Positions 3,319 to 25,024 of a stretch of DNA of 32,000 bases are shown piece by piece. Source of the DNA: Saccharolobus solfataricus (GTDB lineage Archaea; Thermoproteota; Thermoprotei_A; Sulfolobales; Sulfolobaceae); the NCBI RefSeq assembly GCF_900079115.1, contig NZ_LT549890.1, forward strand, positions 450,001 through 482,000, written 5' to 3'. The translations under genes were made by a program, and so were the position numbers. Below the pieces are notes generated by a model. The model saw only the letters and a program-made list of their open reading frames with translations, searched no databases and was not told the DNA's origin. Each line of letters opens with the position of its first letter. Position 1 is the stretch's first letter.

Positions 3319-3633
3319 TTAGAATTTACGTCTTAGAAGAAGGATTGATATTAAAAGTAGTACTATACCGACTGCTAATGTTTCAAGCCATAGGCTGGCA
3401 TAATAAGGTGGCGGAGTATAATTGGTGTGTATAAAAGTGGTTGCTATAATAGGACCTTCGAATGGTACTCCTATTGGTGCTGTCAGCGTTGTAGTGTTTA
3501 TTGACACCGTATACGTATACGGTGATGGTATAGTTATTACTGTTTTTTCGGGGTGGTTTACTGAGTATAGGTAGAGCGATGTACCGAGAAGAACAAGGGC
3601 TATTACTAATGTAGTCAAAACTGATTTCTTCAT
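3319..3633 (-). CDS. Small bitopic membrane protein with a C-terminal PPPYY motif, TM helix and basic tail
   Basis: 104 aa. The N-terminal hydrophobic segment is MKKSVLTTLVIALVLLGTSLYLY. The C-terminus is PPPYYASLWLETLAVGIVLLLISILLLRRKF. It is a paralogue of 3997..4311. Confidence 0.6.
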   Translation of the reverse strand: MKKSVLTTLVIALVLLGTSLYLYSVNHPEKTVITIPSPYTYTVSINTTTLTAPIGVPFEGPIIATTFIHTNYTPPPYYASLWLETLAVGIVLLLISILLLRRKF

Positions 3634-3996: not shown

Positions 3997-4311
3997 TTAC
4001 TTCTTTAACAATCTTACTACTGAATAAATCAATCCAACAATACCACCGACTAGTGGTATTGGCCATAGTGTAGCATACCATGGTGGTGGGACTATATGTG
4101 GGGCTAGTTGTTTTAGCTGAGCTAGTTCTTGAGGTGTAACTATAATGGCTGGGTAGCCCCACCAATAAGCATTCGGCACGCCAGTCTCAGTTATTATCTG
4201 ACCTTTTATCTCGGGGTATACTACAGTAGGCTTATCTATAGCAAATAGATAACCTCCTAATACTATTAATACGATCGAAACCATAGAAAGCAGAACAATA
4301 GATCTTTTCAT
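3997..4311 (-). CDS. Small bitopic membrane protein with a C-terminal PPPWY motif, TM helix and basic tail
   Basis: 104 aa. N-terminal segment MKRSIVLLSMVSIVLIVLGGYLF. C-terminus PPPWYATLWPIPLVGGIVGLIYSVVRLLKK. Confidence 0.6.
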   Translation of the reverse strand: MKRSIVLLSMVSIVLIVLGGYLFAIDKPTVVYPEIKGQIITETGVPNAYWWGYPAIIVTPQELAQLKQLAPHIVPPPWYATLWPIPLVGGIVGLIYSVVRLLKK

Positions 4312-4391: not shown

Positions 4392-4619
4392 TTAAATAGA
4401 CCCTCTTAACCACCTAACTACACTCCTCAGTGCACTCCTTAATCCCGGTGAAAAGTAAATAGTGAGAATTAAACTTGCAAATCCAGCAAATATAATTAGT
4501 TCTGGGAGTATCTGCACATACCATGGTGGGGGCGGTGATGAGCAAATACAAGGCCCCCCAGGATTACTAAAAGAAGTGTTTAACACAATTGGGGGTGAGT
4601 TGTTTAATACTAACGCCAT
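4392..4619 (-). CDS. Small membrane protein with a PPPPWY motif, TM helix and Arg-rich tail
   Basis: 75 aa containing SSPPPPWYVQILPELIIFAGFASLILTIYF followed by SPGLRSALRSVVRWLRGSI. This is the third member of the local PPPWY family. Confidence 0.45.
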   Translation of the reverse strand: MALVLNNSPPIVLNTSFSNPGGPCICSSPPPPWYVQILPELIIFAGFASLILTIYFSPGLRSALRSVVRWLRGSI

Positions 4620-6306: not shown

Positions 6307-7548
6307 GTAACGTGAGAGTGTCCGGAATGTAAAAAATTGAATTTTTATTGACAAGAATAAATTGGTTTTTAGCATTATCTTGGATTAAATTGGAGTAACA
6401 CTTAAGTTATAGGAGGAGAGGGTAGTACCATGACTCGGACGTTAAGAAACGTCCCAAACTTGATGTACTACCCTCTTCCCCCAATAGAGGATATGCCGTG
6501 GAGGGAAAAATGGTTAACGGAGATCAAGCCCGTGCTGGACACCATGGATTTGGAGAGGGTTCTTGGCGAGGGCGCGCTGGTTTACCTGAAGTTGTTAGTC
6601 GTCATGGTGCTCTACTCTTGCTCCTATAGGGACGCGGTGAAAATGGTCAACGTGAACGTGGTCGTGGCCTGGTTCGTGGGGAGGAAGGTGGGGAAGAGCA
6701 CGCTGCACGACTTCGTGGGCAGGTTGTACGGGGTGAGGAAGAAGTTGTTGGAGATTTCCTTCAAGCTTGAGGAGAAGTGCCTACCCAGTTACCTCCCTGC
6801 GAGCGCGCATCTCGTGGACTTCATGGCGTGGCTAGTGGACTCCTTCCTACTGGACTTACCTCCTGGGAAGAGGAGTGTGGAGACCTTTCGGGAGAAGGCG
6901 GAGCTGGAGAGGAGGGAAGGTAACTTGGAGAGGGCCAGGAAGCTGCTCTCCCTGGGGAGAACCAAGAGGAGGTTCGAGGGAAGGTGGACCAAGAAGAGAG
7001 GGGTCTCGCACTACGGGCTCAAGGCAGTGGCCGTGATCTCCGTCTCCCTCTTCGTGAGGTCCATCACGGTGAAGCCAGCCAACTTCTCGGACAAGAGGTT
7101 CAAGTCACCGCTCAAGGGGATTAAGATCGCGGACAGGGGATTCTCTCCCTCCCCGACACAGCTCATAGCGCGGGAGAAGCCCTTCACTACCCTGAGGGTC
7201 CACGTGGAGTTCTTCGGCACCTACCTGAACGCGTTCTGGAGGCCCTACGGGACCACGACCTGGAGGAACGACGTCTTCCTTCACGTCCTGGGAGTGATCT
7301 ACAACATCAAGATGTTCCTCGCGATCCAACGGAGGACTCCTCCAGGACGTAGAGCCGTTCAGCTCTGAGACGCGCCTCCTCGCGATCAAGCAACGCTATG
7401 CGCGATAGGTAAATCATCTCGTCTTGATATTTTTCCATTATAAAGTTTTTCTCGGTGATCCAGGTCCTACCCTTCTGGCAATATTAATATTTATCATTCT
7501 GTTTATCTATTCGTTCAGATAATTACATTCCGGACACTCTCACGTCAC
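6307..7548 (+). mobile_element. Insertion sequence of about 1.24 kb (ISC1234/ISC1225-size class)
   Basis: ACGTGAGAGTGTCCGGAATGT at 6310-6330 is the exact reverse complement of 7525-7545. The repeats extend with one mismatch to 6307 and 7548. One transposase ORF lies inside. No target duplication was recognised. Confidence 0.8.
6430..7368 (+). CDS. Transposase of the 6307-7548 IS
   Basis: 312-aa ORF that is GC-richer than its surroundings and is bracketed by the IRs. Family not assigned. Confidence 0.7.
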   Translation: MTRTLRNVPNLMYYPLPPIEDMPWREKWLTEIKPVLDTMDLERVLGEGALVYLKLLVVMVLYSCSYRDAVKMVNVNVVVAWFVGRKVGKSTLHDFVGRLYGVRKKLLEISFKLEEKCLPSYLPASAHLVDFMAWLVDSFLLDLPPGKRSVETFREKAELERREGNLERARKLLSLGRTKRRFEGRWTKKRGVSHYGLKAVAVISVSLFVRSITVKPANFSDKRFKSPLKGIKIADRGFSPSPTQLIAREKPFTTLRVHVEFFGTYLNAFWRPYGTTTWRNDVFLHVLGVIYNIKMFLAIQRRTPPGRRAVQL

Positions 7549-7705: not shown

Positions 7706-7984
7706 ATGCCTTCCTTTTACGTTAATTCTAATTTCTATATAAAAGAGATTAAGGGGAAGTATTATGTTTACTTAATAGAGAAGGATAATGGAAATAAGAG
7801 AAGGCATAATTACGTAGGTCCTTTAGATAAGATCATAGAATCTTATATTGGGGGTGTGGGGGTGTCCCCCATAATCCCAAAGTGCCGCGGCCGGGATTTG
7901 AACCCGGGTCACGGGCTCGAAAGGCCCGCATTCTTTCGGTGCCTGCGCTTGACCGGGCTAAACCACCGCGGCAAGTCCTCATAA
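7706..7984 (+). pseudogene. SSV-type (partitioning) integrase, N-terminal fragment Int(N) reading into the tRNA-Glu gene
   Basis: IKEIKGKYYVYLIEKDNGNKRRHNYVGPLDKIIESYIGG matches the SSV1 integrase N-terminus pattern G.YYVY..E..NG....YVGPL...ESY. From about codon 60 the ORF is antisense to the tRNA at 7883-7972, as expected when the attachment site lies inside the integrase gene. Confidence 0.75.
7883..7972 (-). tRNA. tRNA-Glu(UUC) with about 15-17 extra nucleotides between the D stem and anticodon stem (non-canonical intron)
   Basis: The reverse complement is GCCGCGGTGGTTTAGCCCGGTCAAGCGCAGGCACCGAAAGAATGCGGGCCTTTCGAGCCCGTGACCCGGGTTCAAATCCCGGCCGCGGCA. Acceptor stem is GCCGCGG/CCGCGGC. T arm is CCGGG-TTCAAAT-CCCGG. 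Anticodon arm is CGGGC-CTTTCGA-GCCCG. CCA is not encoded. Confidence 0.75.
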
Positions 7985-9295: not shown

Positions 9296-9473
9296 AGTAG
9301 TTTAAGGATATTCCCTTACCATAAAATATTTGTTAGTGGGTTAACAATACATCTTTCATTTAACTTCTTAGCTATATTGCGTGTAGATAAAAATTTTTCA
9401 TTTTACTATGAGAGATCTAGTATATATTTTTAACGTAACGTAAGAGTGCAAGGATTTTCCTATAAATGCTACT
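9296..9473. repeat. IS or MITE terminal segment, copy 2
   Basis: It is collinear with 8267-8451. Its last 24 nt, TGCAAGGATTTTCCTATAAATGCT, recur inverted at 14444-14467. Confidence 0.6.
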
Positions 9474-10110
9474 GGAAGAGAAAAGGAATAAAGATGAGAT
9501 CCTTGGACTTCGTATATCCCTTAAGGTTACCCCTCCTAGTGGAGATAGCAGATTTGAGAAGCGACAGTCCATCACAGTTCCTACTTAGGAGCGTGAGGGA
9601 AGTAAGCCAATACATGGAAATAGATTACGTTGTAGCTGACGCCGGATTCTTGAACCTAGACGCCATCAAGGAAATGCCCGTGAAGACCATTGTGAGAGGA
9701 AAGTCAAACTTGAAGAGATCCAAGGAACTATCTAACGTTCCATTAGTTGAGAAGAGATACGAGGTTAAGGACAAGGTTTACGTTGCGTATAGGGTCTTGA
9801 AATTTGAAGGGCTTTATTATTACGATGTGGTTTACGTTAAGGGGAAGCCGAGGCACTTCATCTTCGTGACGAACTTCGAGGGAGATCCTTATGAACTGGC
9901 AGAGCTCTATAGGTTGAAGTGATTGAGGAGAGTTTTAAGGTTAGGAAGGCAAGGATAAGGTATGTTAGGAAGTTGAGTAATAAGATCTTCTTGTTCCTCT
10001 ATTATACGGTTCTGGATTCTGCGTGGAATCTAGTGAACTACCTTCTCTTTAACTTCAAGTCCACGTGTAAGAAGGTTTTGTCCTTCGATTCATTCGTCAA
10101 GCTTCTCTAA
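9446..10110 (+). pseudogene. IS4/IS5-type DDE transposase, C-terminal part, frameshifted and 5'-truncated
   Basis: ORF 9446..9922 ends ...AELYRLK then TGA. ORF 9919..10110 continues IEESFKVRK. Restoring one nucleotide (TG to TGG) recreates the Y-R-x-x-W-x-IE-x-F signature. The coding sequence begins directly at the repeat end at 9473. Confidence 0.65.
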
Positions 10111-10529: not shown

Positions 10530-10742
10530 ATGATTTTGAGATTAGTTAAGGAAAAGTTGGACTTGTTAATATCTAATCCGTTCAAGGTTGCCAGGGAAAA
10601 GTTGGGAAAGGATAGGTACGGAAACCTTACGCTCTCAATAGAAGTTACGGGAGATATAAGGATACTCTACAGTGTTGATCCAAAAAACTGCATCGTGTTT
10701 ATTTGGGAGGTTGGGCCTCATAAGAGGGTTTACGGGCCTTAG
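10530..10742 (+). CDS. RelE/ParE-type toxin (type II toxin-antitoxin)
   Basis: 70 aa. ...IRILYSVDPKNCIVFIWEVGPHKRVYGP fits the RelE/ParE C-terminal pattern (Y.v.....i.i..vG.H..vY). A 27-codon ORF at 10466-10549 overlaps its start but is too short to call as an antitoxin. Confidence 0.6.
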   Translation: MILRLVKEKLDLLISNPFKVAREKLGKDRYGNLTLSIEVTGDIRILYSVDPKNCIVFIWEVGPHKRVYGP

Positions 10743-11154: not shown

Positions 11155-11394
11155 TTAGTTTATAGAATTCTCAATATTAGCTGATAAGGTACAATAAATA
11201 CAAGTAAGAAGTGAGATAACACAACATACATACATAATGCACTGATAAACATAAATTACTATATGTATTTGAATTGAATTAAATATTCCTATCACTAAGC
11301 AAATTTTTAAAACAAGTGTGTGCATTAATATCGCAGCTATAGTCGTGAAAACGCTCAAAATAATGAATGATACAAGAAGATCTTTCTTATTCAT
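11155..11394 (-). CDS. Small hydrophobic Cys-containing protein with 2-3 TM helices, hypothetical
   Basis: 79-aa ORF of low complexity in very AT-rich sequence. It could be spurious. Confidence 0.25.
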   Translation of the reverse strand: MNKKDLLVSFIILSVFTTIAAILMHTLVLKICLVIGIFNSIQIHIVIYVYQCIMYVCCVISLLTCIYCTLSANIENSIN

Positions 11395-11685: not shown

Positions 11686-11885
11686 TGGTTTCCTTTGCGA
11701 ATTGTGATTTGTAAATAATGTGTTTATAAAAATGTTAATACTGGTAATCGTGCGTCTCTGCTAGCTAGTCACCTTCGTTTAGTTAATTTCGTAGCAATAT
11801 TCGAAATAAAGTGAATTCGCAAAAGAAGCGTGAATTGCCCCTAGGATAATATAAGGCGGAATTTATCTAAGTAAATTGGAAGAAA

Positions 11886-13067
11886 TTATTTTAAAACTCC
11901 GATAAACTCTGCAAATTTTATAGTAAATATTGCTAATATCCCTAGGAAACCGGTGAAATAAAATGAGTATAACGGCGTTATTTGGAACAGCAAACCTACG
12001 ATTGCATTATAAAATACTGAAAATATTCTCACAAAAGTACTAATTAGTGCAACTTGAGTCCCCCGGATTTCAGGCTTAGTAACGCTCTGTGCGACATTAT
12101 AATCCACTATACTTTCCATAGCTACAATTACCGTCCAAGCGTAAAATAATAAGAATAAAATATAAACATTAGTAAAGAGTGGAACTAGGAAAAATATGAC
12201 GGAGTTGGAGAAGATTAAGATTGATAAGTTCTTAAAATTACTACGTTTACTTAAAATAACCGAGAACAGTAACGGTAAGAAAGCCATTATTAATGCGTAT
12301 GATGAATATAACACACCTACAAATGTTAAGGGTAGTAGTAAGTCTTTTACGAAATAGATTGTTACGTAATATGTCTCTAGGCTTAAACCGGAAGAAAGAA
12401 TTGAAACTAACAAATAGAGTAACAATTTCTTGTCTTCTTTAAGGTATTTAAAGCCTAATCTTAGAGATCTTTTCACTTCAACCTTGTTCTCGTCTTTCGG
12501 TAATTCAAGAAACCTTATAATACCGCTGATTCCGAAAAGAACCGCTATTATTGTGAAAAGTAGCGTAGAGACCGAGTGTTGTAACAAGTAGCCCCCTAAC
12601 ATAATCCCTATAGCTGCTAAGATGCTGGTTATGAGGGAGAAAACCCCAAAGGCCTTCCCTGCATTCGTATAATTTAGCATAAATCTATGCGCTCCTAAGG
12701 AATTAACTATTCTTATCACAGATTCAAAAATTACAAGAGAAATTATAAAAAGTAAGGGATTAAGCGTTCCCATCAAGAGGAACAAAGGTACTGCCATTAG
12801 TGCTGATAGAGTGACTGCATTCTTACTACCTATTTTATCAACTATAGCACCTAATGGAATATTAAAAACTACGTAAAGGAAACTGATTATACTGTAAATT
12901 ATACCAATTGTGAAGGTAGTAATGTCGAGGTTAGTCATAATTATAGGAAAATAGTATGTCAACAGTGAGTAAGCAAAGGTAGAAATCCCCAAAGATAATG
13001 AAAAATAGAGCAGTCTCTTATCTGCTACAATGTAATAGATCTCTTTTAGTGTTTGCTTCAGACCCAT
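11886..13067 (-). CDS. Major facilitator superfamily transporter
   Basis: 393 aa with about 12 hydrophobic segments. The loop GAIVDKIGSKN after TM2 resembles MFS motif A. The start lies 18 bp downstream of the radical SAM gene stop. Confidence 0.7.
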   Translation of the reverse strand: MGLKQTLKEIYYIVADKRLLYFSLSLGISTFAYSLLTYYFPIIMTNLDITTFTIGIIYSIISFLYVVFNIPLGAIVDKIGSKNAVTLSALMAVPLFLLMGTLNPLLFIISLVIFESVIRIVNSLGAHRFMLNYTNAGKAFGVFSLITSILAAIGIMLGGYLLQHSVSTLLFTIIAVLFGISGIIRFLELPKDENKVEVKRSLRLGFKYLKEDKKLLLYLLVSILSSGLSLETYYVTIYFVKDLLLPLTFVGVLYSSYALIMAFLPLLFSVILSKRSNFKNLSILIFSNSVIFFLVPLFTNVYILFLLFYAWTVIVAMESIVDYNVAQSVTKPEIRGTQVALISTFVRIFSVFYNAIVGLLFQITPLYSFYFTGFLGILAIFTIKFAEFIGVLK

Positions 13068-13085
13068 AACTAATAGACCTCTTCT

Positions 13086-14171
13086 TTAACTTTTTCCAAT
13101 ATAATCTTTAACTATTTGACATGAAGGGTCTGGAGCAAATAGGTCATTCTTAGTTATATATGCATTAAACCTAAAACCACCTCTACAAAGCTTCTTAACT
13201 TCACAACTCTTACAAGGCTCTCTAAGGAAAGATAGACTTCTTATTTTATTAAGCAAGAGATTGTTAAACCAAATTTCAACTAATGAGTCGTTTTTTATAT
13301 TACCTAGCTTTGATAATGGGATAGATGTCGCCTCGGAACTAGGATAAATGTCACCGTTCGGAGCTATAACTAAACCTACTTCCCCCCAATTTGTAGGGAT
13401 TGGTATCCTAGAATATAAAATGTCAGTATCCACATAATTTTGTATAAAATTCTCCCCATAAATTTCTATGAGTCTCTTTAATTTTTCTTGAATTGTTCTT
13501 TCATCGTTAGGATCTGGTACTATGAACTTTTGGTTTATATAACCATGACCTACCTTTATAACACTATGAATTTCAATCCAATCTAAGTTTGATTTATATG
13601 CAAGTTCCGCAATTTCTTCTAAGAAGTCCAAATAATAACTAGTCAAGACTATATTGCCTCCAACTTCCTTTACTCCAAAATCTTTAAATTTCTTTGCGAT
13701 ATTAATCTTCTTAGCTACTTCGTTCTTGATATGCATTATTGGGGATTGTATATTAAAGACGTATTTATGTGAAGTAAGGTTAATTCTAATCTTTTCTAGA
13801 CCACTTTCTAGCAATTTTGTAATTCTATCATCGGAAATAGGTTCTCCGCTACTTAATAACATGTGCCTTAGTTTTTGTCTTGTAACATATGACAAGATTT
13901 CCTCTAAATCGCTTCTTAACAACGGTTCTCCTCCAGTTATCACAACATCCATGATTCCCTCGTATTTTTCATCTAACCTTTTAATTTGATTAATTACTGA
14001 TATCCACTCACTTAAGTTTAGCTCATTCATTTCTATTACAGATCTAGGTTTTGGAACTTTATCAGCTATATAAAATTTTAGATCTTTAGGTGGATTATGA
14101 CAATAAATGCATTGCTGACTACATTTATAAGTTAATTCTAATTCAATAAAAAAAGGTTTACGATTTATCAA
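13086..14171 (-). CDS. Radical SAM enzyme with a reduced SPASM/twitch-like C-terminal Cys motif
   Basis: It has CSQQCIYC (C-x3-C-x2-C) at residues 17-24, a GGEPLL SAM-binding motif, and a C-terminal PCKSCEVKKLCRGGF...DPSC. The protein has exactly 7 Cys in total. The start is TTG at 14171. Confidence 0.85.
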   Translation of the reverse strand: MINRKPFFIELELTYKCSQQCIYCHNPPKDLKFYIADKVPKPRSVIEMNELNLSEWISVINQIKRLDEKYEGIMDVVITGGEPLLRSDLEEILSYVTRQKLRHMLLSSGEPISDDRITKLLESGLEKIRINLTSHKYVFNIQSPIMHIKNEVAKKINIAKKFKDFGVKEVGGNIVLTSYYLDFLEEIAELAYKSNLDWIEIHSVIKVGHGYINQKFIVPDPNDERTIQEKLKRLIEIYGENFIQNYVDTDILYSRIPIPTNWGEVGLVIAPNGDIYPSSEATSIPLSKLGNIKNDSLVEIWFNNLLLNKIRSLSFLREPCKSCEVKKLCRGGFRFNAYITKNDLFAPDPSCQIVKDYIGKS

Positions 14172-14176
14172 CTATT

Positions 14177-14181
14177 TCACC
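14177..14181 (-). promoter_or_regulatory. Shine-Dalgarno-like GGTGA upstream of the radical SAM start
   Basis: The coding strand reads GTGAGGGTGAaatagTTG. GGTGA is the Sulfolobus anti-16S motif used in front of operon-internal genes. Confidence 0.45.
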
Positions 14182-14208
14182 CTCACTATCTTAGAATATA
14201 TTACAAGA

Positions 14209-14397
14209 TTACCAAGAAACCATGTAGTATGAAGGTGGATGTATTGTATAGTACATCATATATTTTCTTCGTTGCATTGCTATTTCGGTTTCAAACTTTT
14301 TTATAATATATTCTTTACTTACTTCTGTTTCCAATGTTTTCACCCGTATGATATAGATGTTTTGAACAGCTTTTTTTTTAAAACTCTCGATACTCAT
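14209..14397 (-). CDS. Small ORF, candidate precursor peptide with an aromatic-rich C-terminus
   Basis: 62 aa: MSIESFKKKAVQNIYIIRVKTLETEVSKEYIIKKFETEIAMQRRKYMMYYTIHPPSYYMVSW. It is on the same strand as the radical SAM gene and ends 37 bp upstream of its start. Coding status is unproven. Confidence 0.4.
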   Translation of the reverse strand: MSIESFKKKAVQNIYIIRVKTLETEVSKEYIIKKFETEIAMQRRKYMMYYTIHPPSYYMVSW

Positions 14398-14440
14398 GAA
14401 AATTTTTTAATACAATGTAAGTCGGTAATAATCAAAACAA

Positions 14441-15044
14441 AATAGCATTTATAGGAAAATCCTTGCAGTTTAAGGAGACTTTGAAAACTTTTTAAAAAAT
14501 AACCAAACAAAATATCGGATGAATATAAACTCATTATACTTTGTCAGACCTTAAAGGGCAAGATTTATGTTTCATGAGTAATACTAAATTGTATGCCGAA
14601 ATCTAGAATGCACGGTATAACTCTCAATAAGAAACAAGAGGAAGAGAGGAGAATTAGCGTATAAAAGACGTGAAGAACGGTATGAGAATAAAGGACGTGA
14701 TCAAGAAGTATGATGTCTCCTTCTTTACCGTGTGCAAACAGTTGAGGAAAGGTGACTTGAGCGCTAAGCCGAGGAAGGGACCCACGAAACTGAAGGAAGA
14801 GAAAAAGCTCGTTCAAATCTTAGAAAAGAGCCCAAGAGATTTCGGCTTGAACTACGACTTCTGGACCTTGAAGCTCATAGCCTATATACTTGAGAAGTAA
14901 TATGGAATAAAATACAACCCGAGGAGTTTAACTCCAGTCCCCAAGAAGTTGGGCTTCAAGTATAAGAAAGGAAAAAGGACTTACGTGAGAGACGAGAAGA
15001 CAGTAGAAGATGGGTGAAGGAACAAGGGGAGAAGCTTTTATAAC
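14441..15044 (+). mobile_element. IS630/Tc1-type element, left part only (decayed)
   Basis: The terminal sequence AGCATTTATAGGAAAATCCTTGCA at 14444-14467 is the inverted form of the 9447-9470 end. Inside lies a broken HTH transposase N-terminus. Confidence 0.6.
14670..14900 (+). pseudogene. IS630-family transposase, N-terminal HTH fragment
   Basis: ...IKDVIKKYDVSFFTVCKQLRKGDLSAKPRKGPTKLKEEKKLVQILEKSPRDFGLNYDFWTLKLIAYIL fits the IS630 pattern P.KGrP.kl.......P...G.....WT. The upstream (MPKSRMHGITL...) and downstream parts are in other frames. Confidence 0.65.
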
Positions 15045-15373: not shown

Positions 15374-16234
15374 ATGAAATATTCTACACAGATAAAGGTG
15401 GAAATTAGTTCTAAAGTTGAATACATAACAGGGAAAAACTTAATACCCAAAATAAAGTCCATTTTTTCTAATATTGAGATAAAAATTGAAAATAGTGAGT
15501 TAGAAGATAAACAGTTCAAAGATTTTCTAAAATCGTATTATAACTTTTATGATAGTTCCAAGATAGATACCATTTTTATTATTGAAGTTAATTTAATCGA
15601 TGAAACTTATAGAGGACTTGGCATTGGTTCATACGATACAAAGACTAATATCTCGTCTCTCTATTTTGAGTGGGAATCAACAACTAAATATGAAGTGCAA
15701 GCTGCTAGTGGTGGCTCCATAATTTGCTGGGATTACTCTACTTATTCAAAAGCGTATCATGGTGCTGTTAACATAAGTTCTGTCGCGGGAACATTAGAAG
15801 GTTTTCCATTAGAAGCAAATGTTACATATTTAACCCTAAACGACGAGGGTGAGATAGTATTCCAAGGATATCAGAAAGGTATAGTTAAGACTATTAACGG
15901 GATACGAGTTGGTAAAGTTAAATTAGTTGGGCTTATTGATGAAAAATTCCGGTTGAATACTTCGCCGGGTTATGCAGTATATCTGACACAGAAAAATGAC
16001 AATATAATGTATGGAGTTTATAATCAGATACAAGTAGACCCCATGGGTAGAATGTATTACGAAACCGCCATTAGAGAATATAAAATATATAGTGGCAGAA
16101 AATTACCATTTGATGAGGTTATGATATTTAAATACAAAGATGCTAATTTCAATCAGATAAAGAGTAATAAAAGAATAGATTCAATGTCACATATAGCATA
16201 TTATATGCCGGCAAAAGACCCTTACGGGAAATAA
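15374..16234 (+). CDS. Hypothetical cytoplasmic protein (286 aa) with no recognisable motif
   Basis: Long ORF with an ATG start and no signal peptide or TM segment. Its stop is 2 nt before the next gene start. Confidence 0.6.
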   Translation: MKYSTQIKVEISSKVEYITGKNLIPKIKSIFSNIEIKIENSELEDKQFKDFLKSYYNFYDSSKIDTIFIIEVNLIDETYRGLGIGSYDTKTNISSLYFEWESTTKYEVQAASGGSIICWDYSTYSKAYHGAVNISSVAGTLEGFPLEANVTYLTLNDEGEIVFQGYQKGIVKTINGIRVGKVKLVGLIDEKFRLNTSPGYAVYLTQKNDNIMYGVYNQIQVDPMGRMYYETAIREYKIYSGRKLPFDEVMIFKYKDANFNQIKSNKRIDSMSHIAYYMPAKDPYGK

Positions 16235-16236
16235 TC

Positions 16237-16974
16237 ATGGTTGAGGAAGCCATTATTCAACTTACTGGAGGAATAGATTCCACAGTATTAGCGTATTATC
16301 TTAAAAAAGATAAATATGTGTTGCATGGAACTTTCATACATTACGGCTATCCTCCCCAGATAAAAGAATTAGAGTTAGTTAAAGAATTGTCTAAAAAGCT
16401 CGATATCCCTCTAAAGATTATTGATTTTTCCTCTTATATTAAGTCTTTCGATCTCCCTCCAATAGATTCTATACAATACATAATTAAGTACCAGTTCGTG
16501 GTAGAAATCCTAGCATCTTTTTCAGCTTATCCGAATCTAAATACCATGTTTGTGGGCTGGCTTAAGGATGAGTGGAATAATAGAATAAGTCTTTTGAAGG
16601 ATATTGAATCTCTTATGGGTTTTAAGGTTATAGCACCTTTTCACACAATGGTAAAAAGTGAAGTTATTAAATTGGGTAATGAATTAGGTGTAGATTTTAC
16701 AAAAACTCATAGTTGCATTGTATCTGGAAAAATGCACTGCGGCATATGTATGGCGTGTAGATCTAGAAGAAGAGCTTTTGAAGAGGTAAAAGTTAAAGAT
16801 CCTACAATCTACTACTATAATTTGCCTCCCGCTGAGGTAGATAAATTATCAAGGGAACTGAGCCTGGAGGAATTCGTAGAGAGATTTTTCAAACCATTCT
16901 TACAATATACCGGAGAATATCCTAAAGAATTTGTGGATAATTTAGCACATATTTTAAGAAAATATAACGGTTGA
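16237..16974 (+). CDS. QueC-like PP-loop ATP pyrophosphatase (divergent 7-cyano-7-deazaguanine synthase family)
   Basis: The N-terminal PP-loop is IQLTGGIDSTV (SGGxDS type). The C-terminal motif is HSCIVSGKMHCGICMACRSRRRAF, a C-x7-C-x2-C-x2-C zinc motif like that of QueC. Internal QueC motifs as I recall them (YGQ, VP.RN, YPDC) read YGY, absent and absent. Confidence 0.7.
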   Translation: MVEEAIIQLTGGIDSTVLAYYLKKDKYVLHGTFIHYGYPPQIKELELVKELSKKLDIPLKIIDFSSYIKSFDLPPIDSIQYIIKYQFVVEILASFSAYPNLNTMFVGWLKDEWNNRISLLKDIESLMGFKVIAPFHTMVKSEVIKLGNELGVDFTKTHSCIVSGKMHCGICMACRSRRRAFEEVKVKDPTIYYYNLPPAEVDKLSRELSLEEFVERFFKPFLQYTGEYPKEFVDNLAHILRKYNG

Positions 16975-18059
16975 ATGTAATGAAGAAATATGTTTTAACA
17001 TATAGGTCAATTATCTCATTTTTCGTAGGTTTCATGAGTTTTGCGTTCATAGCTTTAATGAAAATATCGGGCTTAAGTGGCTTTCAAATAGGATTAATAT
17101 TAAGTACCATATCAATATCTCAGTTTATTGCATATATTATTTTGATAGCCTTCTCGATAAGGAGAAATATCTTGGTCTCGGCAGCATTAGAACTTCTTAT
17201 ACCAATAATTTTAATTATCCAAAGAAGTGCTTTTACTTTCACCCTCTCTGCGATTTTTATGGGTATTGTCAACTCTATAAATTCTTCAGTTATAATAATT
17301 CAGAAAGAATTTACGAGAAAGGATTATTCAATAATGATGACCTTAACTTACGCCCTTAGCTTAGCAGGATTAGGAATATTTTACTTAAGTAAAATAATAG
17401 GAATAAATACCACCCTTCTTTTATTATTTATTCCCTTATTGTCTCTAAACTTAATATTAACATTAATGCTTAGATATGAAGAGAAGAAAGAGAGCTTGTC
17501 GGAACTCTACTCTTGGTTAAAGAACGTTGGAAAGTCAGTTTTAGTCTTTGGCTTCTTTGCGAGTTTAAGAAGGGTTCTAATTACAAGTTATATACCCTTA
17601 ATTCTCCTTACATTATTTTATACATATACTCCGCAAGAAATAAGTTTATACCTCATGATAATTCAAGTTCCTCTAATTATTTTCTTTTATCTAGGCCATA
17701 AAATAAGTGTGAGAATTTTCATAACGTTGTCTATAGTAGAATTAATTCTTTTCTTATCGCTTTCTATATTTTATCGGGAATCAATATTACTATTCTTATC
17801 CTTGATACTTTTAGCTAACATGTCTTCATCCTTAAGGGCTCCAGTTGTTGAAGAGACAGTAAATAAATTGTTAAATTTCAGTACAAAAATTTCTTCATTT
17901 TACCACTTGATGGATACGATCTTCTCGGCGTTAGCGTCAATCTTGCTTGCATTTATGGTAAAATTGGATTTGTTTTATGGAATTTTTGTAATAGCAGGGT
18001 TATCTTCACTCTTGCCGTCTTTATTTGTATACAAGGTTATGCTACAGCAAAGGAAATAG
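16971..18059 (+). CDS. Polytopic membrane protein with about 10-12 TM helices, MFS-like
   Basis: 362-aa hydrophobic ORF. It overlaps the stop of the QueC-like gene by 4 nt (TTG at 16971; an ATG lies at 16980). Confidence 0.6.
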   Translation: MNVMKKYVLTYRSIISFFVGFMSFAFIALMKISGLSGFQIGLILSTISISQFIAYIILIAFSIRRNILVSAALELLIPIILIIQRSAFTFTLSAIFMGIVNSINSSVIIIQKEFTRKDYSIMMTLTYALSLAGLGIFYLSKIIGINTTLLLLFIPLLSLNLILTLMLRYEEKKESLSELYSWLKNVGKSVLVFGFFASLRRVLITSYIPLILLTLFYTYTPQEISLYLMIIQVPLIIFFYLGHKISVRIFITLSIVELILFLSLSIFYRESILLFLSLILLANMSSSLRAPVVEETVNKLLNFSTKISSFYHLMDTIFSALASILLAFMVKLDLFYGIFVIAGLSSLLPSLFVYKVMLQQRK

Positions 18060-19337: not shown

Positions 19338-20511
19338 GGGAGTGTTCTCATGCAGTCATCTTATTCGATAAGTATTAGTAAAATTATATTAGATGATCTC
19401 TAATATACTGTACTCCGCTCAAATAGGCTAAGTTCAAGGGAGTTTTCTCGTCTGTGAAAACTTGCGGGTACATGACGTTCAACAAGGCCAGGCTGTAGTC
19501 AATCATCGCCCTGCTCCTGTTTACGGCCTTCGTGTCCCTAGCTAGCCGAGCTAAGTGAGACCTACAGAATGAGTTGTAGCTCTCCACGGTGTGGGTGTAC
19601 TTCTTGCCCACAACGTGGTGATACAAGACTTGATAGATTGGGTAGTCGTCGGTGTAGTGGACCTCGCACTTGGGGAGTGACAGCCAAAGAAGACGGAAGG
19701 TGTTGTAGTCCCTGTCACCGGTGACAAAGAAGGGGACTCCGTCGATCAAAGCGTTCCAGATCCAGAGGTTCTGTCGTCTGGGACCGCGTCTCACGCGGAC
19801 GTAAGTCCAGCTCTCGTCTAGGACCGCGAACTTCGACCTGAAGGCCTTCAATTGGGCTTGCAAGATCGACAAGTCAACGTAAGCCTTCAAGGCTGCCCTC
19901 TTCACCGAGCTGTAGACCGTGGTCAATGGCCTTCCCTCAACCTTGGATATTCCCCTCAAGCTCATCCTGTTGGTGTACTCCCTCAAGATCCTCTCCCTCT
20001 GCTCCCTGCTCATCCTGTGACTCGCAGTTCCGTAAAAGGTCCTCCCGCAGACCTTGCACTTGTACTTGCTCTTCCCTCTGGACGAACCGTTCTTGATCAC
20101 GCGATCCGAGTTGCAGGAAGGACATCTCGGTCTCACGTCCTTCCTCCTCTTTACCCCGAGCTTCCTGGTGTAGTAATACAACGTGGAGGGCGGTATATTG
20201 AGCTTCGTGATCTGTACTCCCATCACGTAAGCTGCAATGGCTAATGCGATTTCCTCTGGCTTGTGCTTTCGGGGCTTAAGGTTTAAATTTCTTAGGACGA
20301 ATAGTATAAGTTGTGCGAGGGCCACGAGGTTCATGATGCCTACCTAAAGAACCTCGAGGTCCTCGCACATAAGTCTTTTCAATTCCACACGTCCTCAAGT
20401 CTTCAGGTCCACTCGTTGTAACGACTACAAAAATCCTTGAAGAGATTTCTTCATCACCTTAATATTTTTACTAATACTTATCGAATAAGATGACTGCATG
20501 AGAACACTCCC
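19338..20511 (-). mobile_element. IS1-family insertion sequence, 1174 bp (ISC1173 size class)
   Basis: GGGAGTGTTCTCATGCAGTCATCTTATTCGATAAGTATTAGTAAAA at 19338-19383 is mirrored at 20466-20511, giving 46-bp inverted repeats. No flanking direct repeat was recognised. Confidence 0.85.
19384..20334 (-). CDS. IS1-family transposase
   Basis: 316 aa with an N-terminal zinc ribbon CPSCNSDRVIKNGSSRGKSKYKCKVCGRTF (InsA-like). The C-terminal region contains ...LARLARDTKAVNRS... Confidence 0.8.
   Translation of the reverse strand: MNLVALAQLILFVLRNLNLKPRKHKPEEIALAIAAYVMGVQITKLNIPPSTLYYYTRKLGVKRRKDVRPRCPSCNSDRVIKNGSSRGKSKYKCKVCGRTFYGTASHRMSREQRERILREYTNRMSLRGISKVEGRPLTTVYSSVKRAALKAYVDLSILQAQLKAFRSKFAVLDESWTYVRVRRGPRRQNLWIWNALIDGVPFFVTGDRDYNTFRLLWLSLPKCEVHYTDDYPIYQVLYHHVVGKKYTHTVESYNSFCRSHLARLARDTKAVNRSRAMIDYSLALLNVMYPQVFTDEKTPLNLAYLSGVQYIRDHLI

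Positions 20512-24932: not shown

Positions 24933-25024
<92 letters not shown>

What the first reader, a model, noticed from the sequence alone, without database searches (positions are those of the whole stretch)
11886..14397. Candidate archaeal RiPP cassette: aromatic-rich small ORF, radical SAM with a one-cluster SPASM/twitch tail, and an MFS exporter
Three co-directional genes sit tightly together. Their spacings are 37 bp and 18 bp, and a GGTGA ribosome-binding site precedes the radical SAM TTG start.
- **Small ORF:** the 62-codon ORF has a charged, Lys/Glu-rich N-terminal part that resembles a leader. It ends in the unusual aromatic stretch RRKYMMYYTIHPPSYYMVSW, with 6 Tyr and 1 Trp in the last 17 residues.
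- **Radical SAM protein:** it has C-x3-C-x2-C plus GGEPLL. Its C-terminus carries only part of the SPASM pattern. It keeps C-x2-C-x5-C and a distal C, but the usual YPC reads YPS and CRGGC reads CRGGF. With exactly 7 Cys, there is enough for one auxiliary cluster.
- **Interpretation:** SPASM/twitch radical SAM enzymes next to a short ORF and an exporter are the standard layout for peptide-modifying systems that form thioether, C-C or C-O crosslinks on aromatic residues. I know of no such system characterised in Sulfolobales.
Basis: partly seen in the sequence, partly recalled or inferred. Interest (0 to 1): 0.8.

Follow-up and report, generated by a model that had tools for sequence, protein, structure and literature searches.

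The report
Tyrosine-rich peptide, radical SAM maturase, exporter
A hot-acid archaeon (Saccharolobus solfataricus type) carries a compact three-gene module: an unannotated 41-residue tyrosine-rich peptide, a radical SAM enzyme long mislabelled "PqqE", and a membrane pump. The module looks like a peptide natural-product pathway of a kind not yet described in this group of archaea.

Summary

- **Small ORF:** It is a real conserved gene, but 41 codons long (TTG at 14334), not 62. It sits directly upstream of every homologue of the radical SAM gene that I could retrieve.
- **Selection and motif:** dN/dS is about 0.2-0.3 between the Saccharolobus and Acidianus clades. The motif P-S-Y-Y also occurs in the upstream small ORFs of homologues that are only 29-41% identical, with a joint chance of about 4e-7.
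- **Enzyme:** It is PqqE-like in sequence and predicted fold but fails every PqqE-specific test. It keeps the four Cys of the second auxiliary cluster (AuxII: C320, C323, C329, C351) and lacks all four ligands of the first (AuxI). That is the opposite of a Twitch domain.
- **Module:** An MFS transporter gene follows the enzyme gene. The shared DNA block is a discrete module of about 2.7 kb. Its distribution is patchy, it is often decayed, and its flanks differ between genomes.
- **Best reading (about 0.7):** A minimal, streptide-like RiPP cassette whose enzyme modifies the P-x-Y-Y tail of the peptide, with the product then exported.

The chemistry is unknown and nothing has been shown experimentally. 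I rate it a new variant of a known kind.

The parts
14360..14407 (-). Conserved promoter-like element, AAAAAATTTTC...TATCGAGAGTT-(A)n-GCTGTTCAAAA. It is a probable BRE/TATA region and possible operator.
   Evidence: It aligns across the Saccharolobus and Acidianus-type loci, and with the promoter of an unrelated second radical SAM cassette in L015. The A-tract varies from A6 to A18. Its function is inferred.
14340..14344 (-). GGTGA Shine-Dalgarno motif, 5 nt before the peptide start codon.
   Evidence: Conserved as GGTG(A/T) in all aligned loci.
14209..14334 (-). Precursor-peptide gene: 41 codons plus stop, TTG start. Sequence METEVSKEYIIKKFETEIAMQRRKYMMYYTIHPPSYYMVSW.
   Evidence: - Homologous ORFs lie directly upstream of the radical SAM gene in the Sulfolobaceae and Acidianus-type loci L001-L004, L006-L013, L015, L018, L019 and L023.
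- dN/dS is 0.18-0.29 against the Acidianus clade, with dS about 1.
- The identical 41-aa protein is annotated in Sulfolobus sp. S-194.
- Only 6 clusters of this peptide exist among 5.8 billion proteins.
- The AF2 model shows a helix at residues 2-31 and a flexible tail.
14224..14238 (-). Codons for P33-P34-S35-Y36-Y37, the conserved P-x-Y-Y motif and proposed modification site.
   Evidence: - P34, Y36 and Y37 are invariant in 7 variants.
- PSYY is also present in the upstream ORFs of the 40%, 41% and 29% identical homologues in L014, L028 and L027.
- Chance is about 1e-3, 1e-3 and 4e-4 per locus.
14177..14184 (-). GAGGGTGA Shine-Dalgarno motif, 5 nt before the radical SAM TTG start.
   Evidence: Read directly from the sequence. 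Conserved in Saccharolobus loci.
13086..14171 (-). Radical SAM/SPASM enzyme, 361 aa. Radical SAM cluster ligands are C17/C21/C24. AuxII ligands are C320/C323/C329/C351. There is no AuxI site.
   Evidence: - Pfam Radical_SAM 55.2 bits and SPASM 28.6 bits.
- PqqE model TIGR02109 scores 154.6 bits against a cutoff of 381.
- PDB PqqE 6c8v matches at E 8e-22.
- The AF2 model has pLDDT 91.5, and its best fold match is PqqE with TM 0.71/0.81.
- Ligand mapping comes and PMC5715301.
11886..13067 (-). MFS transporter, 393 aa, the presumed exporter.
   Evidence: - Pfam MFS_1 98 bits; weak match to the H+ antiporter subfamily TIGR00900.
- It follows the radical SAM gene in L001, L003, L005-L009, L015-L018, L023 and L028, and lies divergent upstream in L014.
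11803..14561 (.). Extent of the DNA block shared between loci, about 2.7 kb: the self-contained module.
   Evidence: blastn homology with all other loci starts and stops within these limits, and the flanks differ (contexts).

Best explanation
This is a minimal three-gene RiPP-type cassette.
1. The 41-aa peptide is translated.
2. Its N-terminal about 30 residues form a conserved, charged helix (EY[IV]IKKFE...). This helix probably docks the peptide on the enzyme.
3. The flexible C-terminal tail carries P-x-Y-Y.
4. The PqqE-like radical SAM enzyme cleaves SAM at its CX3CX2C cluster to make a 5'-deoxyadenosyl radical.
5. The radical abstracts a hydrogen atom in or next to the P-x-Y-Y motif and installs a covalent modification. 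This is most likely a C-C or C-O crosslink to a tyrosine ring, as its closest relative PqqE does with Glu-Tyr.
6. The enzyme has only the distal auxiliary [4Fe-4S] site (AuxII), so any electron removal must work without the usual AuxI cluster.
7. The MFS protein exports the product. No protease is encoded, so any leader removal would be done by a host enzyme.

**Shown:** gene structure, co-conservation, selection, the motif, cluster-ligand content and the predicted fold.
**Inferred:** transcription as one unit, peptide binding, the chemistry, export, and the biological role. Given the patchy and decaying distribution, that role is probably antagonism or signalling.
For: **Peptide gene**
- It is conserved immediately upstream of the radical SAM gene in loci with unrelated flanks.
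- Purifying selection: dN/dS is 0.18-0.29 with dS about 1, and Ser codons switch between TCA and AGT.

**PSYY motif in distant homologues**
- PSYY recurs in the upstream same-strand ORFs of homologues at 40%, 41% and 29% identity, from genomes of different GC content.
- The per-locus chance is 4e-4 to 1e-3.
- Each of these ORFs has a Shine-Dalgarno-like motif.

**Enzyme**
- The best sequence and fold matches are peptide-modifying radical SAM enzymes: PqqE, SkfB, SuiB, CteB and anSME.
- A further AuxI-less relative, P0078, sits beside a triple-repeat precursor-like ORF, a second radical SAM gene and ABC transporters.

**Transporter and wider pattern**
- An MFS gene is linked in all clades where the flank is available.
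- A second, unrelated Sulfolobales radical SAM/SPASM family has the same layout of small ORF, enzyme and MFS.
- The peptide model gives a confident helix at residues 2-31 and a low-confidence tail.
Against: - There is no experimental evidence of transcript, peptide or modification.
- No RRE/PqqD-like domain was found in the enzyme or the module, so the mode of peptide recognition is unexplained.
- No protease is encoded.
- The N-terminal 'leader' is as conserved as the 'core', which is atypical for RiPPs and also fits a small structured partner protein.
- In L014, L028 and L027 the PSYY motif is followed rather than preceded by the helical segment, so the peptide architecture is not uniform.
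- One intact-enzyme locus (L002) has a divergent tail, ...PPSYYGAVKF.
- Loss of AuxI, usually placed next to the active site, could mean different or non-oxidative chemistry.
- The three distant loci are short metagenomic contigs of unknown organisms.
Confidence: 0.7

Rival explanations
1. The cassette makes a peptide-derived redox cofactor, analogous to PQQ or mycofactocin. The enzyme crosslinks a tyrosine of the peptide, host enzymes excise a small Tyr-derived molecule, and the MFS protein moves it across the membrane.
For: - The closest characterised relative is PqqE. MftC also matches weakly.
- In both of those systems the site of chemistry is a conserved Tyr in a short peptide (established knowledge).
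- The invariant Tyr pair is Y36/Y37.
Against: - No pqqB/C/D/F or mftB/D/E-like genes lie in the 2.7-kb module.
- The peptide has no E-x3-Y and no C-terminal GVY.
- The distribution is patchy, with frequent pseudogenes. That fits a dispensable accessory trait better than a cofactor that other enzymes depend on.
- MFS exporters are not part of the known cofactor pathways (own knowledge).
Confidence: 0.12
2. The radical SAM enzyme works on a non-peptide substrate such as a tetrapyrrole, lipid or other metabolite. The small ORF would then encode a small helical accessory or regulatory protein rather than the substrate.
For: - There are weak matches to NirJ/AhbC/AhbD-type models.
- The peptide is predicted to be mostly one long helix, and its N-terminal part is highly conserved.
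- No RRE was found.
Against: - The NirJ/Ahb scores are far below cutoff and below the PqqE score.
- The top fold matches are all peptide or protein modifiers.
- The element shared across the three distant clades is the unstructured P-S-Y-Y motif, not the helix.
- No metabolic genes are co-conserved.
Confidence: 0.1
3. The small ORF is not translated. The conserved DNA would be a 5' leader or regulatory region of the radical SAM-MFS operon.
For: - The ORF is not annotated in S. solfataricus P2-type records (inferred).
- Strongly conserved non-coding DNA does lie just upstream.
Against: - The substitution pattern is codon-like, with dN/dS about 0.2-0.3, synonymous saturation and Ser codon-family switches.
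- The frame stays open with Shine-Dalgarno motifs in all clades.
- The amino-acid motif is kept where the DNA is unalignable, in GC-richer L027 and L028.
- There is no Rfam match and no stable intergenic structure.
Confidence: 0.04

Closest known systems
PqqE / PqqA (PQQ biosynthesis, radical SAM-SPASM; PDB 6C8V)
   Same: - It is the best hit by sequence: NCBIfam 154.6 bits, PDB E 8e-22, about 28% identity.
- It is the best hit by predicted fold, TM 0.71/0.81.
- Both pair a short peptide gene directly upstream with a conserved Tyr.
- Public databases label this protein 'PqqE-1'.
   Different: - The score is well below the equivalog cutoff of 381.
- All four AuxI ligands are replaced: PqqE C248, C268, C323 and C325 correspond to I258, S278, F333 and F335 here.
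- The PqqE-specific Asp319 is Cys here.
- The peptide has no E-x3-Y motif.
- There are no pqqB/C/D genes, and an MFS gene is present instead.
Streptide operon strABC / SuiB (KxxxW radical SAM-SPASM cyclase)
   Same: - It has the same minimal three-gene logic of precursor, radical SAM/SPASM enzyme and transporter, with no dedicated protease (own knowledge of the str operon).
- SuiB is among the top fold matches.
- The target residue is aromatic.
   Different: - TIGR04080 scores only 46 bits against a cutoff of 500.
- The peptide has no KxxxW motif.
- SuiB has an N-terminal RRE and both auxiliary clusters. This enzyme has neither an RRE nor AuxI.
Twitch-domain radical SAM enzymes (SkfB, BtrN, MoaA)
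   Same: They have one auxiliary cluster in addition to the radical SAM cluster. SkfB is the second-best fold match.
   Different: A Twitch domain lacks the CX2CX5CX3C motif and keeps the AuxI site (PMC5715301). Here CX2CX5C and the distal Cys (AuxII) are kept and AuxI is lost, which is the reverse truncation.
Mycofactocin MftA/MftB/MftC
   Same: It is a radical SAM-SPASM enzyme acting on a Tyr near the C-terminus of a short peptide. The match is weak: TIGR03962 scores 60.9 bits.
   Different: - The score is below the cutoff of 265.
- There is no MftB chaperone.
- The peptide ends in SW, not GVY.
- MftC has three clusters (own knowledge).
Triceptide / cyclophane-forming radical SAM-SPASM maturases (3-CyFE, e.g. 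XyeB) and other aromatic crosslinkers (DarE, WgkB, RrrB)
   Same: These are radical SAM/SPASM enzymes that crosslink aromatic side chains in short motifs of small precursors (own knowledge). WgkB and DynA models match weakly.
   Different: - All scores are far below cutoffs.
- The motif P-x-Y-Y is not one of the described motifs.
- Those systems are bacterial.
- Their enzymes keep the full 7-Cys SPASM.

Membership tests
Radical SAM superfamily | CX3CX2C cluster motif and a match to PF04055 above the gathering score | tested here: met
   C17-x3-C21-x2-C24 is invariant in the family. PF04055 scores 55.2 bits against 29.5.
SPASM-domain subfamily | Match to SPASM domain models above the cutoff | tested here: met
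   PF13186 scores 28.6 against 21.5. TIGR04085 scores 44.9 against 27.
SPASM-domain subfamily | Complete 7-Cys motif that ligates two auxiliary clusters | tested here: not met
   Only C320, C323, C329 and C351 are present. The positions equivalent to the AuxI ligands are I258, S278, F333 and F335 (ligand assignment from PMC5715301).
Twitch-domain enzymes | Lacks CX2CX5CX3C and retains the single AuxI cluster | tested here: not met
   CX2CX5C and the distal Cys are retained, and the AuxI ligands are absent (definition).
PqqE (PQQ synthesis) | Score at or above the TIGR02109 equivalog cutoff | tested here: not met
   154.6 bits against 381.35.
PqqE (PQQ synthesis) | Asp at the third AuxII position (D319, totally conserved in PqqE) and Cys-x-Cys AuxI ligands | tested here: not met
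   The enzyme has C329 instead of Asp and F333/F335 instead of Cys. 21 PqqE-type proteins in the same alignment have D, C, C.
PqqE (PQQ synthesis) | PqqA with E-x3-Y, and neighbouring pqqB/C/D genes | tested here: not met
   The peptide lacks E-x3-Y near the Tyr residues. The conserved module holds only the peptide, radical SAM and MFS genes.
Radical SAM-dependent RiPP cassette | Short precursor ORF adjacent to, co-oriented with and co-conserved with the enzyme | tested here: met
   Selection is shown.
Radical SAM-dependent RiPP cassette | Conserved core motif in the precursor across divergent enzymes | tested here: met
   P-x-Y-Y is invariant in 7 variants. PSYY is present at 29-41% enzyme identity, beyond chance.
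Radical SAM-dependent RiPP cassette | Leader-recognition element (RRE/PqqD-like domain or separate protein) | tested here: not met
   There is no PF05402 or other extra domain in the enzyme or the small ORF, and no fourth conserved gene. A family-specific insert at residues 29-47 is a candidate substitute, by inference only.
Radical SAM-dependent RiPP cassette | Enzyme-dependent covalent modification of the peptide | not testable with these tools
   This needs co-expression or in vitro reconstitution with mass spectrometry.
Radical SAM-dependent RiPP cassette | Linked export function | tested here: met
   An MFS_1 gene lies downstream, or divergent in L014, in all clades where the flank is available. 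The direction of transport is not testable here.
Streptide-type KxxxW cyclases | TIGR04080 score at or above the cutoff, and a KxxxW motif in the precursor | tested here: not met
   46.3 bits against 500. The peptide has no KxxxW.
Mycofactocin maturase MftC | TIGR03962 score at or above the cutoff, an MftB partner, and a precursor ending in GVY | tested here: not met
   60.9 bits against 265. There is no such partner, and the peptide ends in VSW.

The most novel reading that the evidence does not exclude
The P-x-Y-Y peptides and their AuxI-less SPASM enzymes define a new RiPP class. It would be the first radical SAM-made ribosomal natural product from Sulfolobales or Thermoproteota. It would carry a previously undescribed tyrosine-centred crosslink, made by an enzyme that works without the active-site-proximal auxiliary cluster and without an RRE. 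The product would be a heat- and acid-stable secreted peptide used in archaeal antagonism or signalling.
Probability: 0.4. Interest if true: 0.8.

Novelty: new variant of a known kind. Interest (0 to 1): 0.68.

Why it matters
- **New archaeocin candidate:** A 2023 survey lists only sulfolobicins and halocins as described archaeocins (PMC10105419). I found no paper in the held library on a radical SAM RiPP from Sulfolobales.
- **Testable in a model organism:** The cassette sits in the S. solfataricus P2-type genome, where the enzyme is labelled 'PqqE-1' and the peptide gene is unannotated. It can therefore be tested directly by genetics and mass spectrometry.
- **Role of AuxI:** The enzyme family is a natural experiment on what the AuxI cluster of SPASM enzymes is for. 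It has a complete AuxII site and no AuxI site, a state found in only 8 of 62 nearest relatives.
- **Practical uses:** A thermostable peptide-crosslinking radical SAM enzyme would be useful for biocatalysis. The result also corrects a long-standing misannotation that implies PQQ synthesis in Sulfolobales.

Tried and rejected
- **Mobile-element carriage:** tblastn of the enzyme against plasmid and phage collections gave only PqqE-like hits of about 28% identity or less. A scan of viral contigs found nothing. There is no evidence of plasmid or virus carriage.
- **RNA elements:** Rfam found only two tRNAs elsewhere in the window. The 37-nt peptide-enzyme spacer has no stable hairpin, with z = +1.66, so there is no attenuator evidence.
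- **AhbD as a precedent:** I first recalled AhbD as an AuxII-only enzyme. PMC10452713 reports two auxiliary clusters in AhbD, so I dropped it.
- **Defence system:** PADLOC gave only weak viperin-type radical SAM matches. Rejected.
- **Downstream 79-aa membrane ORF (11155-11394) as an immunity gene:** It is found only in the near-identical S. solfataricus locus and is not part of the conserved module.
- **Divergent QueC-like operon as part of the system:** It is adjacent only in S. solfataricus-type loci.
- **Literature:** Searches for pqqE-1 and guessed SSO locus tags returned nothing, so I could not link the cassette to published transcript data.
- **More relatives:** The genome and metagenome scans found only close relatives plus unrelated radical SAM genes. 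The distant family members came from the exhaustive HMM search.
Full report
**What is in the window**

On the minus strand there are three tightly spaced ORFs.
- A small ORF at 14209-14397.
- A 361-aa protein at 13086-14171 with a TTG start.
- A 393-aa protein at 11886-13067.

The gaps are 37 and 18 nt. GAGGGTGA lies 5 nt before the TTG of the second gene. Pfam assigns Radical_SAM (55.2 bits) and SPASM (28.6 bits) to the second protein, MFS_1 (98 bits) to the third, and nothing to the small ORF. The exact protein sequences are those of Saccharolobus solfataricus: AAK40864.1, named 'Coenzyme PQQ synthesis protein E (PqqE-1)' by UniRef, and AAK40865.1, an MFS or 'multidrug resistance related protein'. 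The window is therefore an S. solfataricus P2-type genome.

**The small ORF is real, but shorter than described**

- In other loci, the region matching the first 21 codons of the 62-codon ORF contains in-frame stops: L002, L003, L004 and L006.
- An alignment of the upstream DNA places the window's TTG at 14334 exactly on the ATG used in the Acidianus-type loci. Each start is preceded by GGTG(A/T).
- The product is 41 aa: METEVSKEYIIKKFETEIAMQRRKYMMYYTIHPPSYYMVSW.
- NCBI annotates this identical 41-aa protein in Sulfolobus sp. S-194.
- The ATG at 14397 lies upstream of a strongly conserved promoter-like element...TATCGAGAGTT-(A)n-GCTGTTCAAAA.... Its A-tract varies from 6 to 18 between loci.
- The tail has 5 Tyr and 1 Trp in the last 17 residues, not 6 Tyr.

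**Is the peptide gene conserved with the enzyme?**

The enzyme family is very small.
- A word-indexed search of 5.8 billion proteins found only about seven close clusters. These come from Saccharolobus, Sulfolobus, Acidianus brierleyi and hot-spring metagenomes. There is one member at 40% identity, and below that generic PqqE-like proteins at 30% or less.
- An exhaustive profile search of 1.84 billion representatives shows the same cliff: 724, 413, 250 (a fragment) and 204 bits, then a continuum at 167 bits or less.

In every locus that extends upstream of the enzyme gene, a homologous small ORF sits directly upstream on the same strand.
- This includes A. brierleyi (MEIDEEYVIKKFENEIKIQKRKYTMYYTVHAPSYYMTSW), where the enzyme is only 71% identical.
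- Seven peptide variants share the invariant residues EY.IKKFE, KY.MYYT and P.YY.
- Between the Saccharolobus and Acidianus clades the peptide gene has dS of about 1 but dN/dS of 0.18-0.29. Serine codons switch between the TCN and AGY families. This is the signature of a translated gene, although 39-41 codons give noisy estimates.

The strongest evidence comes from the distant members.
- **L014** (enzyme 40% identical): the upstream ORF is MSDRCFDWPLCPPSYYMSMEKVISYINLRRSLVEGKCRERR.
- **L028** (41% identical, GC-richer)...GDRCIDIPPPCTPPSYYMTIERLASYIALARGREKREKCRERVE.
- **L027** (29% identical)...LPMVGDPSYYRNPEALRRWADLVREKGK....
- Shuffling the upstream DNA produces PSYY in any forward frame in about 1e-3, 1e-3 and 4e-4 of trials.
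- L014 and L028 count as one clade, so the joint chance is about 4e-7.
- Each ORF has a Shine-Dalgarno-like motif.

P-S-Y-Y (P-x-Y-Y in one Saccharolobus variant, PPIYY) is therefore the common denominator of the peptides that accompany this enzyme family. It is the likely site of action. In these three distant loci the motif is followed by a charged helical segment. In the Sulfolobaceae and Acidianus clade it is preceded by one.

**The enzyme**

The best NCBIfam match is PqqE (TIGR02109), but at 154.6 bits against a cutoff of 381. All other matches are weaker and below their cutoffs: NirJ/Ahb, WgkB, MftC, the KxxxW cyclase, sactisynthases and anSME. The best solved relative is PqqE 6C8V at E 8e-22.

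An AlphaFold2 model (pLDDT 91.5, pTM 0.90) matches these structures in order:
1. PqqE, with TM 0.71/0.81.
2. SkfB.
3. SuiB.
4. CteB.
5. anSME.

All of these modify peptides or proteins.

I mapped cluster ligands through the PqqE alignment, using the published assignments. These are AuxI = C248, C268, C323, C325 and AuxII = C310, C313, D319, C341. The anSME AuxII site uses four Cys (PMC5715301). The result is as follows.
- The query has the full four-Cys AuxII set: C320, C323, C329 and C351. These are invariant in the family.
- It has I258, S278, F333 and F335 at the four AuxI positions.
- The protein has exactly these 7 Cys.
- By the definition quoted, a Twitch domain lacks CX2CX5CX3C and keeps AuxI. 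This protein is the reverse, an AuxII-only SPASM.

Among the window protein and 61 of its best-scoring relatives, the split is as follows.

| Group | Count | AuxI Cys |
|---|---|---|
| PSYY family (5) plus P0078, P0088 and P0128 | 8 | 0 |
| True PqqE-type (D at position 329, C-x-C at 333/335) | 21 | 4 |
| Others | 33 | 3 |

One AuxI-less outlier, P0078, lies next to a 108-aa ORF with three tandem 27-residue repeats, a second radical SAM gene and two ABC transporters. That is a typical RiPP-like neighbourhood.

No RRE/PqqD domain is present in the enzyme or the module. A family-specific insert after the CX3CX2C motif (residues 29-47, with invariant P40, R43 and S44) is a candidate peptide-binding element, by inference only.

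**Transporter, module limits and distribution**

- The MFS gene follows the enzyme gene in A. brierleyi, where it overlaps by 35 nt. It also follows in L003, L005-L009, L015-L018, L023 and L028 (pairwise E 2e-11). In L014 an MFS fragment lies divergently upstream.
- DNA homology between the window and all other loci begins at about 14553-14561 (14410 for Acidianus) and ends at about 11803-11956. This is a block of about 2.7 kb holding just the promoter region and the three genes.
- The flanks are unrelated between loci: ribosomal genes and a nitroreductase, a CTP-transferase, a nucleotidyltransferase, and toxin-antitoxin genes.
- In the window the block lies among IS fragments and a ParE-like gene.

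Several copies are decayed.
- S. islandicus LAL14/1-type loci have a T7-to-T8 frameshift at codons 6-8 and a 102-nt deletion.
- L010-L013 lose the enzyme's C-terminus and the MFS gene.
- L005 is frameshifted.
- S. shibatae entries are truncated.

Intact copies occur in S. solfataricus, S. caldissimus, A. hospitalis, A. brierleyi and some metagenomes. A discrete, patchy and frequently decaying module fits an accessory trait such as antagonism or signalling.

**A parallel system**

In L015 a second, unrelated radical SAM/SPASM gene lies divergently next to the cassette. It is 23% identical to the first and has the full 7-Cys motif. It is preceded by its own 62-aa ORF.
- Its homologues at 54-65% identity again show the order small ORF, radical SAM/SPASM, MFS.
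- Its small ORF contains EYIKKKFELKEKLASKNY, compared with EYIIKKFETEIAMQRRKY in the window peptide (pairwise E 0.002).
- Its promoter region in L015 is almost identical to the family-1 promoter element.

This suggests a shared regulatory element and perhaps a shared recognition helix. I treat it as a lead, not a result.

**Most likely mechanism**

1. The peptide is made from a transcript that starts just downstream of the conserved TATA-like A-tract.
2. Its residues 2-31 are predicted helical with pLDDT above 90 for residues 11-30. The PPSYYMVSW tail is predicted with low confidence, so it is probably flexible.
3. The enzyme binds the peptide, cleaves SAM, abstracts a hydrogen atom in or beside P-x-Y-Y and modifies it. 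By analogy with PqqE and the other aromatic crosslinkers, the product is most likely a C-C or C-O bond to a Tyr ring.
4. The MFS protein exports the product.

The parts and their co-conservation are shown. Every step of the mechanism is inferred. How the reaction is completed without AuxI is an open point. AuxI is the cluster nearest the active site in solved SPASM enzymes (own knowledge).

**Rivals**

- **A PQQ- or mycofactocin-like cofactor pathway (about 0.12).** It would fit the PqqE kinship and the invariant Tyr pair. Against it, there are no tailoring genes and the distribution looks dispensable.
- **A non-peptide substrate, with the small ORF as an accessory protein (about 0.10).** It would fit the strongly conserved helix and the missing RRE. 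Against it, the element kept across distant clades is the unstructured PSYY motif.
- **A non-translated regulatory leader (about 0.04).** This is contradicted by the codon-level substitution pattern and by motif conservation where the DNA no longer aligns.

**Comparison and novelty**

The system works like a minimal radical SAM-SPASM RiPP cassette. Its closest layout is the streptide strABC operon and its closest enzyme is PqqE. It is not a member of the PqqE, MftC, KxxxW-cyclase or Twitch families, because defining features were tested and failed (see the membership table). No model in NCBIfam or Pfam recognises the peptide. The held literature contains nothing on a radical SAM RiPP from Sulfolobales. 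A 2023 survey lists only sulfolobicins and halocins as described archaeocins. I rate it a new variant of a known kind, for three reasons:
- a new core motif;
- a new lineage, thermoacidophilic Thermoproteota;
- an unusual AuxII-only, RRE-less enzyme.

**Limits**

- All evidence is computational.
- The three distant loci are short contigs of unknown organisms.
- I could not connect the locus to published transcriptome data.

Noticed in passing
window 15374-18059 (+): A three-gene operon lies divergent from the cassette. It encodes a 286-aa protein with no family match, a 245-aa QueC-like PP-loop ATPase (Pfam QueC 2.7e-24; weak QatC match) and a 362-aa polytopic membrane protein with no family match. 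The arrangement is the same in S. solfataricus CP033235 (L023), but it is not adjacent to the cassette in other genomes. It could be another small-molecule or defence-type module.
   Followed up: partly
window 3319-3633 (-), 3997-4311 (-), 4392-4619 (-): Three paralogous small membrane proteins, the two longer ones with an N-terminal hydrophobic segment, carry PPPYYASLW, PPPWYATLW or PPPPWYVQIL just before a C-terminal hydrophobic segment. The motif resembles the PPSYYMVSW tail of the peptide. The two tested (3319-3633, 3997-4311) have no Pfam match. This may be coincidence or a shared recognition motif; I could not tell.
   Followed up: partly
window 14371-14379 (-) and the equivalent positions in L001-L006, L015, L018 and L023: The A-tract inside the conserved promoter-like element upstream of the peptide gene varies between loci from A6 to A18. 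It is A9 in the window and A18 in S. solfataricus CP033235. This could change promoter spacing or strength.
   Followed up: no
L006-L009 (about 30 nt into the radical SAM gene); equivalent to window about 14148-14154: A T7 run at codons 6-8 of the radical SAM gene is T8 in S. islandicus LAL14/1-type loci. This frameshifts the gene, which also carries a 102-nt internal deletion. L015 has a similarly truncated 314-aa ORF, but I did not read its T-run.
   Followed up: partly
L015 34-1335 (-); L024 42-2584; L025 3795-8736; L026 820-5761: A second Sulfolobales-type cassette has the same layout. A 62-69-aa ORF (conserved YI[KE]DMAWCIG..PL.LL.EF.P...EM....EY[IV]) is followed by a radical SAM/SPASM gene with the full 7-Cys motif, then an MFS gene. 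In L025 and L026 a further radical SAM/SPASM gene and a 346-aa protein follow. In L015 its promoter region nearly matches that of the window cassette.
   Followed up: partly
L029 3492-6427: A 108-aa ORF with three tandem repeats (DVNFLPVITSASAF[ML][AV]VMGRLQEQKST) lies upstream of an AuxI-less radical SAM/SPASM gene (P0078, about 30% identical to the window enzyme). A second radical SAM gene follows and ABC transporters flank the set. It looks like a multi-core RiPP cluster from an unknown organism.
   Followed up: no
window 14397-14561 (-): About 160 nt upstream of the promoter element is conserved at 76-91% (as a spurious 46-aa ORF) among Saccharolobus-type loci but not in Acidianus. It may be an extended regulatory region of the cassette.
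   Followed up: no
window 7883-7972 (-) and 24933-25024 (-): Two tRNA genes span about 90 nt against a 71-position model, so they probably contain introns. The surrounding region holds several IS and transposase fragments (6430-7368, 9446-9922, 19384-20334) and a ParE-like toxin ORF (10530-10742).
   Followed up: no
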